Positions 1,895-62,355 of a stretch of DNA of 64,000 nt are shown piece after piece; position 1 is the stretch's first letter; each line of letters opens with the position of its first letter. The notes below the pieces were generated by a model. It made no database searches. It was not told the origin of the DNA and saw only the letters and a list, made by a program, of their open reading frames with translations. The position numbers and the translations under genes are program-made. Origin of the DNA: Vicinamibacteria bacterium (GTDB lineage Bacteria > Acidobacteriota > Vicinamibacteria > Marinacidobacterales > Marinacidobacteraceae); the NCBI GenBank assembly GCA_965199715.1, contig OZ241322.1, positions 1,792,001 through 1,856,000 on the forward strand, read 5' to 3'.

Positions 1895-1966
1895 TGGGGC
1901 GTGGCCGAGTGGTTAGGCGCCGGGTTTTGGTTCCGGTTCACGAGGGTTCGAGTCCTTCCGCCCCAG
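1895..1966 (+). tRNA. tRNA-Gln(TTG), CCA not encoded
   Basis: Acceptor stem TGGGGCG/CGCCCCA; anticodon arm CCGGG-TTTTGGT-TCCGG; T loop TTCGAGT; usual position between ispE and prs. Confidence 0.93.
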
Positions 1967-10324: not shown

Positions 10325-10398
10325 GCTGGCGTAGCTCAGGCAGGCAGAGCAACTGATTTGTAATCAGTCGGTCAAGGGTTCGAATCCCTTCGCCAGCT
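10325..10398 (+). tRNA. tRNA-Thr(TGT)
   Basis: GCTGGCG/CGCCAGC; ACTGA-TTTGTAA-TCAGT; TTCGAAT. Confidence 0.95.
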
Positions 10399-10470
10399 CC
10401 GATCGGTTGCGGTCGGTTCTGGTTGCGAGGAGCTGCTTCTGACTGTGGGCGAAGGGCGGGGCCCGGCAGG

Positions 10471-10556
10471 GGAGCGGTAGCGAAGCGGCCAAACGCATCA
10501 GGCTGTAAACCTGACGGCTCATGCCTTCGGAGGTTCGAATCCTCCCCGCTCCACCA
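10471..10556 (+). tRNA. tRNA-Tyr(GTA)
   Basis: GGAGCGG/CCGCTCC; TCAGG-CTGTAAA-CCTGA; long variable arm; CCA encoded. Confidence 0.96.
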
Positions 10557-10683
10557 GCCGAAACCGCTTCCCTCCAACAGCCAGCCGCATCCCGAGCACA
10601 CTTCCCGCGCCGCCCGAAAGTCCCCAGAAAGCTCCCGAACAGCCATGACGCCGAATCCTCAGCCCGCTCCGAAGCCGCCGGCT

Positions 10684-10759
10684 GCGGGAGTAGCTCAATT
10701 GGTAGAGCATCAGCCTTCCAAGCTGGTGGTTGCGGGTTCAAGTCCCGTCTCCCGCTCCA
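10684..10759 (+). tRNA. tRNA-Gly(TCC)
   Basis: GCGGGAG/CTCCCGC; anticodon loop CTTCCAA; CCA encoded. Confidence 0.96.
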
Positions 10760-10789
10760 GTCTTCGCGTCCGGCCCCGCCGGGACGCGC

Positions 10790-10864
<75 letters not shown>

Positions 10865-12383: not shown

Positions 12384-12459
12384 AGGCCAGTAGCTCAATC
12401 GGCAGAGCACCGGTCTCCAAAACCGGGGGTTGGGGGTTCGATCCCCTCCTGGCCTGCCA
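12384..12459 (+). tRNA. tRNA-Trp(CCA)
   Basis: AGGCCAG/CTGGCCT; CCGGT-CTCCAAA-ACCGG; CCA encoded; precedes secE. Confidence 0.96.
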
Positions 12460-50821: not shown

Positions 50822-50894
50822 TGGGCCCACCAGGATTTGAACCTGGGACCAACCGGTTATGAGCCGGCCGCTCTGACCGCTGAGCTATGGGCCC
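50822..50894 (-). tRNA. tRNA with CAT anticodon, probably tRNA-Ile2 (lysidine)
   Basis: GGGCCCA/TGGGCCC; GCCGG-CTCATAA-CCGGT; paired G1-C72 so not initiator; typical location after rpoD. Confidence 0.88.
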
Positions 50895-58647: not shown

Positions 58648-59813
58648 ATGCGTCGGCGACGCTTTCTGGGTTCGCTCGCCGGGTTGGCCGTGGCGCCGGG
58701 CTATCGCGGCGTCTCCGCCGCCCAGCGCGCGGGCGCGCGGATCGGCGTTCTCGGCGGCGGGATCCTCGGCTGCTCGATCGCGCTGCACCTCGCCCGGCGC
58801 GGCGCGAACGTGACCGTCTTCGAGCGCGAAGGGCCGGCGGCGGGCGCGACCGGGAACTCGTTCGCGTGGATGAACGCCAGCTTCTCGAAGCGCCCCCGCG
58901 CCTACCACGAGCTCAATTGGCGCGGGATGCAGGGCTGGCGGCGGCTCGAGGACGGCGTGGAGGCCTCCGGGTCACCTGGGGCGGGAGCCTCGAGTACCGC
59001 GTGGACGCCGATCGCGCCGGCGCGCTGGACGAGCAGCTCACCCGGGCGCAGCGCTGGGGGTATCCGATTCACCGGGTGGACGAGGAGCGTCTGCGCGAGC
59101 TGGAGCCGGGCGTGACCCCCGAGGCCCCGGTTCTGTGCGCGGCGTGGGCTTCCGCCGAGGGCTCGATCGAGCCGCGCTCGACCACGAGGGCGCTATGGGC
59201 GGCGGCGGAGGCCGCCGGCGCGACGTTCCGCATCGCCGAGGTCGCCTCGCTGGACGTCCGCTCCGGATCGCTGCGCGGCGTGCGCACCGGGGACGGCGAC
59301 CACGAGCTGGACACGCTGGTGATGGCCGCGGGAGTCCAGGCCCCGGATCTCCTGCGTCCCGCCGGCGTCCCGCTGCCGCTGGTCGAGTCTCCCGGCATCC
59401 TCGCCCACTCGAAGCCGGCGGCTCCGGCCGTCAACCGGATCGTGCTGGCTCCGCGCATCCACCTGAAGCAGACCGCCGGGGGCAAGGTGGTCGCCGGAGT
59501 CGGATTCGCCGGCGCGGGCTCCACCGACGCCTCGCGGACGGTCGGCGAATCCATCCTCGAGGAGACCGCGAAGGTCGTTCCGGCGGTCGCCGGGCTCGAG
59601 GTCGAGGAAGTGACCCTCGGCTACCGGGTGCTGCCCGAGGACGGTCATCCGGTCGTCGGATTCCACCCGGCGGCGCCGGGGATCTACGTCGCCTCGATGC
59701 ACAGCGGCGTCACGCTCGCGCCGGTGATCGGCCGGTTCGCCGCCGCGGAGATCCTCGACGACGTGGAGGTCTTGCTCCTGGCGGACTTCCGGCCGAACCG
59801 CTTCTCGGCGTGA
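58648..59813 (+). CDS. Tat-signal FAD-dependent oxidoreductase (DAO/glycine oxidase family), apparent frameshift at about 58962
   Basis: MRRRRFL signal, GGGILG, GATGNSFAW in the first frame; LRVTWGG..GYRVLPEDG..HSGVTLAP in the second; one extra G in GTGGAGGC would join them. Confidence 0.8.
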
Positions 59814-59827
59814 CCGTTCTCAGCCTG

Positions 59828-59940
59828 ACCGCCGGTCCCGAAGATTCGGGCCGCCGCTTTTGGGGATGGGTGGGTCTCTTGCGACGGCCCCCGACCTTGG
59901 CCGGACCCCGGATGTAAGGAGGTGAACTTTCCGGAGCACC
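59828..59940 (-). ncRNA. Candidate small RNA with anti-Shine-Dalgarno loop
   Basis: Extended -10 TGaTAAGTT (59953-59945); hairpin GCUCCGGA/UCCGGGGU with loop AAGUUCACCUCCUUACA; further GCAA-loop and CCCGAA/UUCGGG hairpins. Confidence 0.45.
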
Positions 59941-59965
59941 GGTGAACTTATCACAGGAACCAAGC

Positions 59966-60907
59966 TCAGGAACTTTGCAAAGTTCTTGAGGCCCGAAACA
60001 CCACGTCGAGGTCCCGCCGGGCGCGCTCGAAGCCGGAGCGCGGCGCGCGCAAAGGGTCGGCGAGAAGCCGCCGGAAGTCGCGCGCCATGGCTTCGAAGCC
60101 CATGAAGTCGCGGAATCCGGGGAGGCGGAATCGAATCCGCCGGCCGGCGCGCAGCCTCAGGTACAAGCCGTTGCTCTCGAAGACGATGCTCCCCCGCTCG
60201 CCGACCACCCGCGAATGCTGGAGGACGCCGCCGGGGAGCGAGCGCCGGTCCCAGGCGTACTCGACCAGCGCGGTCGCCCCCGAGGGATAGCGCAGTTCCA
60301 CTCGGGAATGGCGCTCCGGCCGGTCCTCGCCGGGGAACTCCGCTTCCACCTCGTCGGGCCGTTCCGCGAGGATTGCGCCCAGCAGCGCGACGAAGTGGAT
60401 CCCGCCCTCCAGCAGCGCCCCGTGGGCGGCGCGCCAGCCCGACGCCCGCTGGAGCGAGAGCTTGCGCAGCTCGACCCGCCGCACCGGCCCGATTTCGGGG
60501 AGCAGGCTCAGGAGCAGCCGCAGCGAGGGCTTGTAGAGGTAGTTCTCGGCGACCATCAGCGACCCCGCCGGGCGCGATTCGAGCGCCGCGCCGATCGCCC
60601 CGACCTCCTCCGGCGCGACGGCCATCGGCTTTTCCACGAGGACGACCTTCCCGGCCTCGAGCGCCCGGGTCGCCGCCTCGGCGTGCGCTTCCGCCGGGGT
60701 CGCGAGCACCACGCCGCGGATTTCGGGACGCGCCAGCACGTCGTCGAGGTCGTCCGCCGCGCTTCCCCCGAACCGCGCCGCGAGCGTCTCGGCGGAGGCG
60801 CGCCTCCGGCTTGCGAAGGTGAGGTCGCACTGGTCCCGCAGCAGCCGGGCGTGCACCCGCCCGATCGCGCCGGCGCCGACGATCGCGACCTGCGGTCGTC
60901 CGCTCAC
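59966..60907 (-). CDS. Gfo/Idh/MocA family oxidoreductase
   Basis: VAIVGAGAIG, ATP...H, GKVVLVEKP, GALLEGGIH; GTG at 60907 overlaps the GMC stop. Confidence 0.88.
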   Translation of the reverse strand: MSGRPQVAIVGAGAIGRVHARLLRDQCDLTFASRRRASAETLAARFGGSAADDLDDVLARPEIRGVVLATPAEAHAEAATRALEAGKVVLVEKPMAVAPEEVGAIGAALESRPAGSLMVAENYLYKPSLRLLLSLLPEIGPVRRVELRKLSLQRASGWRAAHGALLEGGIHFVALLGAILAERPDEVEAEFPGEDRPERHSRVELRYPSGATALVEYAWDRRSLPGGVLQHSRVVGERGSIVFESNGLYLRLRAGRRIRFRLPGFRDFMGFEAMARDFRRLLADPLRAPRSGFERARRDLDVVFRASRTLQSS

Positions 60908-62355
60908 TTGGCGATGGCCGCGCCCGCCCGAAGCGCGAGCGCGGCGATGGTCAGGCTCGGGTTCACGCCCCCCGATGCGGGAAGGAGGCTGCCGTCGGTC
61001 ACGTGGAGGTTGCGGACGCCGCGGAGACGCCCCTCGGGATCCGCCGGCCCGTCCGCTTCGCTCGCCGCCATCCGGACCGTGCCCACCGCGTGCGAGAAGC
61101 TGCGGATGCGCCAAGTGTGGGTGAAGAGCCCGCCGGCGCGTTTCAGGATGCGGCGGGCGCGGCGCGTCAGGTGGGCGAGGCGCTCCCGGTCCGCCGCCCG
61201 GTAGTCGTGGTCGATGAGCGCTTGACCGTCGTCCCCGATCCGGACCCGGTTCTCCGGGTTCGGTTCGTCCTCGGCCACGCACAGCAGGTTCTGGAGCCGC
61301 TTCACGACCGCGCTCCGCAGGATCAGCCGCGGGAGTCCCCCGGCGGCGTGCCGCACGACCGCGGGGGCCGGCGTGTAGATGTCCTGGATGACTCCGGTGG
61401 CGCGTCCGTCGAGCGCGCGCCGGTCCTCGTAGAAATCGGTGAAGCAGACCTGCTTGTGGAAGTGCTGCTCCGGGTTCGTCTCGAACGGGAAGAGCGCCGC
61501 CACCACCGCGTTGCAATGGCGCATCAGGAACCGGCCGACGAGATCCCCGCCGAGGCCCGAACGCAGCAGCACCCCCGGGCTCCCGAGCGCGCCGGCGGCG
61601 AGAACGAAGTGCGCGGCCTCGAAGCGAAGCGGCTCGCCGGTCCGCCGGTCGGCGGCGTCCACCGCCGCGACCCGGTCCTTGTCCATGACGAGGCGACGGA
61701 CCCGCGTCCCCGGACGCACGGTCGCGCCGAGCGCGGCCGCCCGGCGCAGGATCCGTTCGGCGTCTCCCTTCGCCCGGACCCGGCAGGGGAAGCCGTCGCA
61801 GGTGTTGCAGCGCACGCAGCGGTCGGGGTCGAGCGAAAAGTTGATTGCGAGCGGCAGCGGGAACGGCCGCAGCCCGAGATCCGCGCCGGCCCTCGCGATC
61901 CGTTCCGCCGGCGGGTTCCACGCAAGGCGCGGGAAGGGGAACGCGCCGCTGCGGTCCGGCTCGGCCGGATCGGAGCCGGCGTCGCCGTGGACGAGGAGCT
62001 CCTCCTCGGCGCGGGCGTACCACGGCTCCAGTTCGGAGTAGGGGAACGGCCAGTGGCGGAAGTCCGCCTCCCGCAACCGGAGCGAGGCCGCGCCGTAGAA
62101 GACGGACATCCCGCCGGCGACGACGCTCTGGTGGACCTCCCGGCGCTTGCGGTCGCCCAATTGGCGGACCAGCAGCGGCGTTTCGCCGCGGTACCGCTGG
62201 TCCACGAGGATGGCCCGCGGATCCCAGTCGGTCTCGTCGCGGCGCGCCCAGTCGCCCCGCTCGAGGACGGTGACCTTCGCCCCGGCGCGCGCAAGCTGGA
62301 GCGCGGCGAGGGCGCCGCCGAGACCGGAGCCGATGACGACCGCGTCCGGCAACAC
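60904..62355 (-). CDS. GMC family FAD oxidoreductase
   Basis: VIGSGLGG..LERG, GGMSVFYG, CVRCNTCDGFPC, HAVGTVRM, VTDGS, VNPSLTIAA. Confidence 0.9.
   Translation of the reverse strand: MLPDAVVIGSGLGGALAALQLARAGAKVTVLERGDWARRDETDWDPRAILVDQRYRGETPLLVRQLGDRKRREVHQSVVAGGMSVFYGAASLRLREADFRHWPFPYSELEPWYARAEEELLVHGDAGSDPAEPDRSGAFPFPRLAWNPPAERIARAGADLGLRPFPLPLAINFSLDPDRCVRCNTCDGFPCRVRAKGDAERILRRAAALGATVRPGTRVRRLVMDKDRVAAVDAADRRTGEPLRFEAAHFVLAAGALGSPGVLLRSGLGGDLVGRFLMRHCNAVVAALFPFETNPEQHFHKQVCFTDFYEDRRALDGRATGVIQDIYTPAPAVVRHAAGGLPRLILRSAVVKRLQNLLCVAEDEPNPENRVRIGDDGQALIDHDYRAADRERLAHLTRRARRILKRAGGLFTHTWRIRSFSHAVGTVRMAASEADGPADPEGRLRGVRNLHVTDGSLLPASGGVNPSLTIAALALRAGAAIAK

What the first reader, a model, noticed from the sequence alone, without database searches (positions are those of the whole stretch)
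59828..59953. Candidate small RNA displaying the 16S rRNA anti-Shine-Dalgarno tail in a hairpin loop
Seen: the gap between two convergent oxidoreductase genes is AT-richer and contains TAAGGAGGTGA (59915-59925) with no well-spaced start codon after it. On the minus strand an extended -10 (TG-A-TAAGTT, 59953-59945) puts a start near 59940-59937, at the base of a stem GCUCCGGA (59937-59930)/UCCGGGGU (59912-59905). Its two G-U pairs exist only on the minus strand. The 17-nt loop AAGUUCACCUCCUUACA contains UCACCUCCUUA, matching the canonical 16S 3' end. A GCAA-tetraloop hairpin and a CCCGAA/UUCGGG hairpin follow. Known: loop-exposed anti-SD motifs occur in alphaproteobacterial CCUCCUCCC cuckoo RNAs and betaproteobacterial toxic sRNAs. 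Inference: an approximately 110 nt trans-acting RNA that binds ribosome-binding sites or acts as an antitoxin, possibly an undescribed family.
Basis: partly seen in the sequence, partly recalled or inferred. Interest (0 to 1): 0.8.

Follow-up and report, generated by a model that had tools for sequence, protein, structure and literature searches.

The report
New small RNA in sponge Acidobacteria
The gap holds a real, previously undescribed small RNA gene, found once in every genome of one family of marine sponge-associated Acidobacteria, that shows cytosine-rich loops (one copying the end of 16S rRNA) and probably silences genes by covering their ribosome-binding sites.

Summary
Window 59837-59938 (minus strand) is a conserved, structured, about 100-nt RNA gene. 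A model built from it finds exactly one copy in 28 of 28 genomes of the window's family (marine or sponge Vicinamibacteria MAGs) and none in 27 of 27 genomes of the two sister families. Three abutting hairpins are backed by covariation: 98.3% of cells paired, and 0 of 500 shuffles reach the score. Wobble pairs fix the minus strand, 98.3% against 84.3%. TGnTAnnnT sits at a fixed distance upstream in 27 of 28 genomes. No Rfam family matches.

The anti-SD loop (UCACCUCCUU, identical to the organism's own 16S tail) is present in 23 of 28. One genus has CCCCC there instead, although its 16S tail is unchanged.

Best reading (about 0.5): an Hfq-independent trans-acting sRNA of the sX13, 6C and CuKoo kind. 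Transcription, 3' end and targets are not shown.

In passing: this whole family lacks SRP RNA, Ffh and FtsY, the exact mirror of the RNA's distribution.

The parts
59945..59953 (-). Extended -10 promoter element TGATAAGTT (TGnTAnnnT)
   Evidence: Read. TGnTAnnnT is found at the same distance upstream of the first stem in 27 of 28 family genomes; the exception reads TAGTATATT. The flanking bases vary. No -35 match: the consensus scan finds no two-hexamer promoter in this region.
59837..59938 (-). Conserved RNA core (about 102 nt) as matched by model R1. The 5' end is inferred at 59937-59938. The true 3' end is unknown.
   Evidence: R1 match at G000:C1:1851837-1851938 (-), 94.3 bits, E 9.6e-15. 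The blastn core 59845-59938 is conserved at 75-93% identity in 24 of 24 other family genomes.
59930..59937 (-). P1, 5' strand (GCUCCGGA)
   Evidence: 8 pairs. 4 of them show changes on both sides, and 98.7% of cells are paired.
59913..59929 (-). Loop 1, AAGUUCACCUCCUUACA. UCACCUCCUU (59925-59916) is identical to the own 16S 3' tail.
   Evidence: CACCUCC occurs in 24 of 28 genomes and the 10-mer in 23 of 28.
59905..59912 (-). P1, 3' strand (UCCGGGGU)
59891..59904 (-). P2 hairpin (CCGGC-CAAG-GUCGG). It abuts P1 and P3 with no linker.
   Evidence: 5 pairs. One pair appears as GC, GU, AU and UA.
59881..59890 (-). P3, 5' strand (GGGCCGUCGC)
   Evidence: 10 pairs, 100% paired. One pair is U-A in 17 distinct sequences and C-G in 3. 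One U-G wobble is invariant.
59858..59880 (-). Loop 3, AAGAGACCCACCCAUCCCCAAAA (C-rich, the most conserved unpaired part)
   Evidence: GACCCACCC[AC][UA]CCCC is present in 28 of 28 genomes. The columns are invariant in the alignment.
59848..59857 (-). P3, 3' strand (GCGGCGGCCC)
59837..59847 (-). 3' tail, GAAUCUUCGGG. GAA is invariant and a G-run usually follows.
   Evidence: No canonical terminator is found here. Some other genomes have a U-run or a hairpin with a U-run further on.

Best explanation
A family-specific, independently transcribed small RNA of roughly 100-135 nt. It starts about 59937-59938 on the minus strand, driven by an extended -10 promoter. It folds into three directly abutting hairpins.

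Two large apical loops expose C-rich single strands. Loop 1 carries the 16S-tail sequence UCACCUCCUU. Loop 3 carries GACCCACCCAUCCCC. The most likely mechanism is antisense pairing of these loops with G-rich stretches of mRNAs (Shine-Dalgarno and neighbouring GGGG or GGGUGGG runs). This would block ribosome binding, without Hfq, as shown for sX13, 6C and the CuKoo/NfeR1 RNAs.

Shown here: conservation, copy number, fold, strand, a promoter-like element and the loop motifs.
Inferred: transcription, the exact ends, trans action, and the targets.
For: 1. One copy in 28 of 28 genomes of the family and 0 of 27 in the sister families, by covariance model. In a class-wide sample of 151 genomes only the family scores: 27 of 27 family genomes, against 4 of 124 other genomes, all at E 0.25-0.77.
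2. Fold: 23 pairs, 98.3% of 458 cells paired, and 6 pairs changed on both sides. The covariation score is 0.198 against 0.129 in shuffles, and 0 of 500 shuffles reach it. Slid partners give 31-48% paired. RNAalifold finds the same three stems on its own.
3. Strand: 67 G-U cells, with 98.3% paired on the minus strand against 84.3% on the plus strand.
4. Promoter: TGnTAnnnT in 27 of 28 genomes, always 5-7 nt before the first stem.
5. Not coding: the alignment has indels of 1, 2 and 7 nt.
6. Loop motifs: the loop-3 C-run is in 28 of 28 genomes and CACCUCC in 24 of 28.
7. No Hfq domain is found in the genome, as in the chaperone-independent 6C case (abstract).
[quoted passage not shown] NfeR1 uses anti-SD motifs in three hairpins (passages).
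Against: - No target was found. Sites complementary to the loops are no more frequent in the own genome than for reversed or shuffled loops: loop 1 gives 70 hits against 85, 18, 12, 3, 7 and 28; loop 3 gives 96 against 68, 35, 17, 48, 355 and 28.
- None of the top sites lies convincingly at a translation start.
- An 18-nt loop-3 complement with up to 3 mismatches is about as frequent as its backward control across the 28 genomes.
- Gene calls were crude, so this is weak negative evidence.
- No canonical -35 and no canonical terminator in the window.
- The helices abut with no single-stranded linker, which is unusual for classical base-pairing sRNAs (inference).
- The P3 stem sequence barely varies: 9 of 10 pairs never change. 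That could mean the sequence itself is read, for instance by a protein.
- One genus lacks CCUCC in loop 1.
- Transcription is not demonstrated.
Confidence: 0.5

Rival explanations
1. Protein decoy that mimics the 16S 3' tail. Loop 1 presents UCACCUCCUU so that a factor which normally reads the end of 16S rRNA is bound or titrated. Candidates, from general knowledge, are the Era KH domain, a 3'-end maturation RNase, a small-subunit protein, or an endoribonuclease toxin that cuts the anti-SD.
For: - 10-nt identity with the own 16S tail, extending 5' of the CCUCC core into UCA.
- The 19-nt loop is nearly invariant in five genera, which is more than an SD-pairing seed needs.
- The architecture is compact, with no linkers, and the P3 sequence is invariant.
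- A paper title and abstract in the listing (PMC12274833) show that toxins which remove the anti-SD exist.
Against: - One genus (3 of 28 genomes) has lost the CCUCC sequence in the loop although its 16S tail is identical.
- One genome has UUUACCUCC and one has CCUCCAC.
- The invariant part of the RNA is loop 3, which resembles nothing in 16S.
- There is no toxin or ribosome-biogenesis gene next to it.
- No binding test is possible with these tools.
Confidence: 0.15
2. A structured RNA with a translation or membrane-targeting role that arose with the loss of the signal recognition particle in this family. It would not be an ordinary mRNA regulator.
For: - The distributions are exact mirrors. 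R1 is in 28 of 28 family genomes and 0 of 27 sister-family genomes. SRP RNA RF00169 is in 0 of 28 and 27 of 27. Real SRP54-type GTPase hits are in 0 of 28 and 27 of 27.
- One loop copies the part of 16S that contacts mRNA.
Against: - Both traits may each have arisen once on the same branch, so the correlation is effectively n = 1.
- The RNA has none of the SRP RNA domain IV motifs and no Rfam SRP score.
- It does not lie where the sister families keep their SRP RNA. None of the 6 sister-family SRP RNA loci examined has a DAO or GFO homologue nearby.
- The syntenic spot after the DAO orthologue is empty in the 8 loci examined from one sister family.
- It evolves faster than 16S: 63-91% identity against 94-99%.
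Confidence: 0.1
3. It is not a free-standing sRNA. It would be either the structured 5' part of a longer antisense transcript that runs into the convergent DAO gene, or a piece processed from the 3' UTR of the upstream GFO-family mRNA.
For: - The DAO gene is the convergent downstream neighbour within 1.5 kb in 24 of 28 genomes.
- The upstream gene's 3' end is alignable in most of the 27 loci compared. G005 was left out because its contig ends there.
- No canonical terminator lies in the window.
- Contigs from RNA libraries span the whole 59300-60156 and 59313-60292 stretches, but that does not show transcription.
Against: - The distance to the DAO stop varies from about 24 nt to several hundred nt, and 4 of 28 loci have no DAO within 1.5 kb.
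- Two genomes have a clear hairpin with a U-run between the RNA and the next gene (G022, G015).
- The conserved -10 element argues for its own start.
- Synteny within one shallow family (16S 94-99% identical) may simply be inherited.
Confidence: 0.1
4. A plus-strand element: a strong Shine-Dalgarno site for a small ORF, or a leader or riboswitch.
For: TAAGGAGGTGA is a near-perfect SD on the + strand.
Against: - There is no well-spaced start codon here. In the commonest genus an ATG lies 16 nt after GGAGG, and it is not conserved (G010 lacks it).
- The next gene downstream on the + strand is on the other strand.
- The wobble pairs become A-C mismatches on the + strand: 84.3% paired against 98.3%.
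- The conserved -10 reads only on the minus strand.
Confidence: 0.03
5. A repeat (REP/MITE), an rRNA fragment, or chance.
For: A short piece is identical to 16S.
Against: - Single copy in the own genome and one significant hit (E 0.01 or better) in every family genome.
- No rRNA or other Rfam model scores, even at E up to 10.
- Covariation supports the fold.
Confidence: 0.02

Closest known systems
sX13 of Xanthomonas (abstract read)
   Same: Three stable stems with C-rich apical loops. It acts on G-rich motifs at ribosome-binding sites, Hfq is dispensable, and it occurs in a high-GC genome.
   Different: No sequence or model similarity: no Rfam family scores on the RNA. Here only two of the three loops are large and C-rich. 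Loop 1 copies 10 nt of the 16S tail rather than a plain CCCC motif. The phylum is different (Acidobacteriota). Function is untested.
6C RNA of Actinobacteria, RF01066 (abstract read)
   Same: C-rich hairpin loops as pairing sites in a high-GC organism, with chaperone-independent G-C pairing.
   Different: The 6C model does not match this locus. Its best hits in the genome are 18.8 bits, elsewhere, against a gathering score of 47. This RNA has three hairpins and much larger loops (17 and 23 nt).
CuKoo / alpha-r14 family: NfeR1, CcsR1 RF02791 (passages read)
   Same: Anti-Shine-Dalgarno sequence displayed in hairpin loops of a three-hairpin sRNA, used to occlude ribosome-binding sites.
   Different: The defining CCUCCUCCC motif is absent, and it is not repeated in each hairpin. 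There is no model match on the RNA; one E = 1.1 CcsR1 hit lies 1.3 kb away in L007. CuKoo RNAs are alphaproteobacterial. Here the match extends into the UCA 5' of CCUCC, as in 16S.
Bacterial small SRP (4.5S) RNA, RF00169
   Same: Similar size, one copy per genome, and present exactly where canonical SRP RNA is missing.
   Different: No GNRA-capped helix 8 with the symmetric and asymmetric loops seen in the sister families' SRP RNAs. No model score. Ffh and FtsY are also missing. The genomic position is different.

Membership tests
CuKoo / CcsR / alpha-r14 sRNAs | CCUCCUCCC motif in the loops of each hairpin | tested here: not met
   Loop 1 has CACCUCCUU and loop 3 has CCCACCCAUCCCC. CCUCCUCCC occurs nowhere in the RNA.
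CuKoo / CcsR / alpha-r14 sRNAs | Match to the Rfam covariance model (such as RF02791) | tested here: not met
   No hit on the RNA at E up to 10 in the window, or at E up to 5 in four other genera.
6C RNA (RF01066) | Match to the Rfam model: two hairpins whose loops hold runs of at least 6 C (the loop definition is recalled) | tested here: not met
   The whole-genome search gives only two 18.8-bit hits elsewhere, against a gathering score of 47. C-rich loops are present, but the architecture differs.
sX13-like C-rich-loop sRNAs | Three stems with apical loops that carry a CCCC (4C) motif | tested here: inconclusive
   Three stems are present. CCCC is in loop 3 in 28 of 28 genomes. Loop 1 has CCUCC (CCCCC in one genus). 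Loop 2 is 3-6 nt and not C-rich. No Rfam model hit.
sX13-like C-rich-loop sRNAs | Represses mRNAs with G-rich motifs at the RBS | not testable with these tools
   Crude scans found no enrichment and no clear site. Reporter assays are needed.
Bacterial SRP RNA (RF00169 / RF01854) | Domain IV hairpin with a GNRA tetraloop and conserved internal loops; model match | tested here: not met
   No model hit. The sister families' SRP RNAs carry ...GUCAGGCCCGGAAGGGAGCAGC..., which is absent here.
Type III-like RNA antitoxin / toxic sRNA | Adjacent toxin gene or tandem repeats; growth effect | tested here: not met
   The neighbours are DAO and GFO/IDH/MocA oxidoreductases. Single copy and no tandem array. 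A growth effect cannot be tested here.
REP / MITE repeat or rRNA fragment | Many copies per genome, or a match to rRNA models | tested here: not met
   One copy in the genome and one significant hit (E 0.01 or better) per genome in 28 of 28. No rRNA model hit at E up to 10.

The most novel reading that the evidence does not exclude
The RNA is not a routine mRNA regulator. It is a lineage-specific ribonucleic component of translation or co-translational membrane targeting. It would have arisen in a bacterial family that has discarded the whole SRP system (4.5S RNA, Ffh, FtsY) while keeping SecY and YidC, and it would use its 16S-tail mimic and C-rich loop to engage ribosomes or ribosome-binding sites.
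Probability: 0.08. Interest if true: 0.9.

Novelty: new variant of a known kind. Interest (0 to 1): 0.5.

Why it matters
It would be the first candidate regulatory RNA described for Vicinamibacteria and for sponge-associated Acidobacteria, none of which are in culture. Searches of the held paper library found nothing on such an RNA or on 'Marinacidobacterium', and Rfam 15 has no match.

If the mechanism is right, it is another independent invention of C-rich or anti-SD loop sRNAs in an Hfq-less, high-GC lineage. That strengthens the idea that G-C loop pairing is a general solution there.

The covariance model gives a simple marker for this family. The side finding, an entire family without SRP RNA, Ffh and FtsY, bears on how essential co-translational targeting is in bacteria. 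It also explains why closed genomes of this family score only 87-95% 'complete' (inference).

Tried and rejected
1. Expression. The look-up of sequencing runs listed 7 runs from 2 studies, 2 of them on record as RNA. All are kept as contigs. Read laying showed one RNA-library contig per run across 59300-60156 (X3) and 59313-60292 (X4). Contigs give no strand, ends or level, and the tool itself says 'not shown transcribed'. So this is no evidence either way. The DNA runs laid only short unrelated pieces.

2. Single-sequence thermodynamics is uninformative.

3. Targets.
- Exact complements of 10 nt or more gave 20 loop-1 and 37 loop-3 places in the own genome, mostly inside coding sequence.
- The one 13-nt loop-3 match before an ATG (C1:1950642) lies in a wrong-frame ORF extension upstream of an MnmA-like gene. 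Rejected.
- An RNAduplex scan timed out.
- An ungapped scoring scan showed no excess over reversed or shuffled loops. It left four weak candidates at ORF starts, none convincing. One of them (C1:1458765) turned out to be the antisense of a C-rich spacer between two genes.
- The family-wide 18-mer pattern with up to 3 mismatches was about as frequent as its backward control.

4. SRP RNA identity was considered because of the mirror distribution. It was rejected on motifs, model score, position and the absence of Ffh.

5. Pseudoknot between the loop-3 CCCC and the 3' GGGG. Rejected by reasoning: a 3-nt linker cannot span a 10-bp helix, and the G-run is not conserved in the window's genus.

6. 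'Housekeeping-level' conservation. Rejected: the RNA is 63-91% identical between genera whose 16S is 94-99% identical.

7. Wider homologues.
- The metagenome pattern scan gave 17 stretches, and 0 of 17 match R1 at E 0.01 or better.
- Eight loci after the DAO orthologue in one sister family gave only noise with filters off (best E 0.14).

8. The consensus promoter and terminator scan found nothing in 59700-60100.

Supplementary files of papers were not opened.

10. Unpublished genome. Counts for the sister family f2 include the unpublished genome G033. It is flagged and is also listed. The 8-of-8 and 0-of-8 figures for f2 rest partly on it.

Full report
**What is in the window.**
- The gap 59814-59965 separates a DAO-family oxidoreductase ORF (58866-59813, +) from a GFO/IDH/MocA-family ORF that ends at 59966 (-).
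- GC drops from about 0.73 to 0.63 in the gap.
- TAAGGAGGTGA is at 59915-59925.
- Alone, the sequence folds no better than shuffles (z -0.06 and +0.95).
- No Rfam family matches, either at gathering score in the whole window (only seven tRNAs) or at E up to 10 in 59700-60100 (one noise hit in the DAO gene).

**Conservation.**
- The stretch is single-copy in the 2.66-Mb genome.
- blastn finds query positions 32 to about 125 (window 59845-59938) at 75-93% identity, once per genome, in 24 of 24 other genomes of the same family. None of 16 genomes of the two sister families gives anything better than E = 0.04.
- The flanks of this core are not alignable between genera.
- A pattern scan of 185,579 species representatives gave 27 stretches. 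All are MAGs titled Acidobacteria, Vicinamibacteria, Vicinamibacteraceae or 'Candidatus Marinacidobacterium', and several carry sponge- or coral-type bin names.
- The runs that hold the window's DNA are labelled sponge metagenome.

**Fold and strand.**
- RNAalifold on 25 sequences gives three hairpins.
- With a fifth P2 pair added, 23 pairs are formed in 98.3% of 458 cells (20 distinct sequences).
- Six pairs change on both sides. The covariation score is reached by 0 of 500 shuffles. Sliding the partners by 1-3 columns drops pairing to 31-48%.
- P1 carries most of the covariation (4 of 8 pairs). P3 has one double change, seen in 3 sequences of one genus, and 9 of its 10 pairs never vary. So P3 rests mainly on its length and on an invariant U-G wobble.
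- Sixty-seven cells are G-U. Read on the other strand, only 84.3% of cells would pair.
- The helices abut without linkers.
- Indels of 1, 2 and 7 nt exclude a conserved reading frame.

**Promoter and ends.**
- TGnTAnnnT, the extended -10 consensus, is present in 27 of 28 genomes, with its last T 5-7 nt before the [U/C]GC that opens P1. The exception has TAG for TGG.
- The bases around it vary.
- No -35 is recognisable, and the two-hexamer scan finds nothing. This fits an extended -10 promoter, but it is a gap in the evidence.
- The 3' end is open. After P3 comes an invariant GAA, then usually a G-run, then in several genomes 2-6 U.
- Two genomes have a classical hairpin with a U-run about 15-50 nt further on (G022, G015). 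The window has none.

**Distribution.**
- Model R1 hits once in 28 of 28 family genomes (78-122 bits) and in 0 of 27 genomes of the sister families.
- In a sample of 151 genomes of the class, only the family scores. Elsewhere there are four hits, at E 0.25-0.77.
- JGI metagenomes gave 17 pattern matches, and none fits the model.
- One sister family has clear DAO orthologues (48-51% identity in 16 of 19 genomes). In the eight loci examined there is no such RNA after them.
- Within the family the order GFO-family gene, RNA, convergent DAO gene is kept. DAO lies within 1.5 kb in 24 of 28 genomes, and the upstream gene's 3' end is alignable in most of the 27 loci compared.
- The family is shallow (16S 94-99% identical), and the RNA diverges faster (63-91%). 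Synteny may therefore just be inherited.

**The loops.**
- The organism's 16S ends GGAUCACCUCCUUUCU, so loop 1 shares UCACCUCCUU with it.
- CACCUCC is present in 24 of 28 genomes and the 10-mer in 23 of 28.
- The three genomes of one genus instead have GGGUGGAUUGAUCACACCCCCUAAC (or a close variant). In these an inner stem (GGGUG/CACCC) covers part of the C-run. Yet their 16S tails are identical to the others. So the loop does not track 16S, and anti-SD identity is not obligatory.
- Loop 3, GACCCACCC(A/C)(U/A)CCCC, is in 28 of 28 genomes.
- The common denominator is therefore exposed C-runs.

**Mechanism.**
- Published analogues are the best guide. sX13 has three stems and C-rich loops, acts on G-rich RBS motifs, and does not need Hfq (abstract).
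- 6C uses C-rich loops and is chaperone-independent in high-GC bacteria (abstract).
- NfeR1/CuKoo carries anti-SD motifs in three hairpins (passages).
- The genome has no Hfq domain.
- I therefore favour RBS or G-rich-site occlusion by loop pairing, at about 0.5.
- I could not find targets, and the negative scans are described under Tried and rejected. With seeds of 6-8 G-C pairs and crude gene calls, those scans have little power.
- Rivals are: a protein decoy mimicking the 16S tail; a role tied to the loss of SRP; and a leader of an antisense transcript or a 3'-UTR product. They are weighed in their own sections.

**Comparison and novelty.**
- The RNA fails every membership test by model or motif for CuKoo/CcsR, 6C and SRP RNA.
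- It works most like sX13 or 6C, but it is an unrelated family in another phylum, with a 10-nt copy of the 16S tail and a 23-nt C-rich loop.
- I rate it a new variant of a known kind.

**Side finding.**
While checking whether the RNA could be a known housekeeping RNA, I found that the family lacks the SRP system.
- Small SRP RNA is in 0 of 28 family genomes against 27 of 27 in the sister families. No large SRP RNA is found in the own genome.
- An nhmmer profile of the sister families' SRP RNAs gives a best E of 6.3.
- The SRP54 GTPase domain gives at least two matches in every one of 27 sister-family genomes, with a best E of 1e-67 or lower in 26 of them (2e-29 in the fragmented G053). The family gives only P-loop-length matches (E about 2e-4 to 1e-3, profile positions 3 to about 50) in 9 of its 28 genomes.
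- The M domain does not pass its cut-off.
- Ffh and FtsY ORFs of the sister families find nothing in the own genome by tblastn (E up to 0.01) or phmmer (best E 0.042). Their neighbours find orthologues of 47-70% identity.
- SecY and YidC are present.
- Nine of the family genomes are listed as single contigs.
- I found no paper on this.
- The mirror-image distribution with the RNA is striking, but it is effectively one branch.

Noticed in passing
Whole genome G000 and all 28 genomes of its family (not in the window): The whole signal recognition particle pathway seems to be missing. SRP RNA is in 0 of 28 genomes, against 27 of 27 in the sister families. There is no real SRP54-type GTPase, so neither Ffh nor FtsY, in 28 of 28. 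tblastn and phmmer with sister-family Ffh and FtsY find nothing in G000. SecY and YidC are present. No paper was found on this.
   Followed up: partly
window 59921-59929 and 59941-59949: A 9-nt direct repeat, GGTGAACTT, 20 nt apart (on the minus strand AAGTTCACC). One copy is in loop 1 and the other overlaps the -10 element. It is seen only in this genome's version of the promoter.
   Followed up: no
window 58866-59813 and 59966-62023: The DAO ORF matches the Pfam DAO profile only from position 73 of 353, and relatives align only from residue 36, so its N-terminal FAD-binding part or true start is unclear. The 685-aa ORF on the other side carries GFO/IDH/MocA domains only in residues 379-614, so its first half may be another gene or an over-extended ORF.
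   Followed up: no
window 1895-1966, 10325-10861, 12384-12456, 50822-50894: Seven tRNA genes, four of them clustered at 10325-10861.
   Followed up: no
genomes of genus g2, e.g. G019:C23:105, G023:C42:36, G010:C1:1204565: An 18-mer, GTGAGGGTGGGTGGGGTT, recurs many times per genome, often at contig ends. This suggests a G-rich dispersed repeat in that genus. It is partly complementary to loop 3, but overall pattern counts do not exceed the backward control.
   Followed up: no
G000 whole genome: No Hfq domain and no 6S RNA by the Rfam model were detected.
   Followed up: no
G000:C1:1458745-1458775: A C-rich tract, CCCCCACCCCACCCCC, lies directly before an AAGGAGA Shine-Dalgarno site and the ATG of a gene with a Tat-like N-terminus (MDEKTRRDFLRAAGF...). 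It resembles loop 3 in sequence but lies in an mRNA leader.
   Followed up: no
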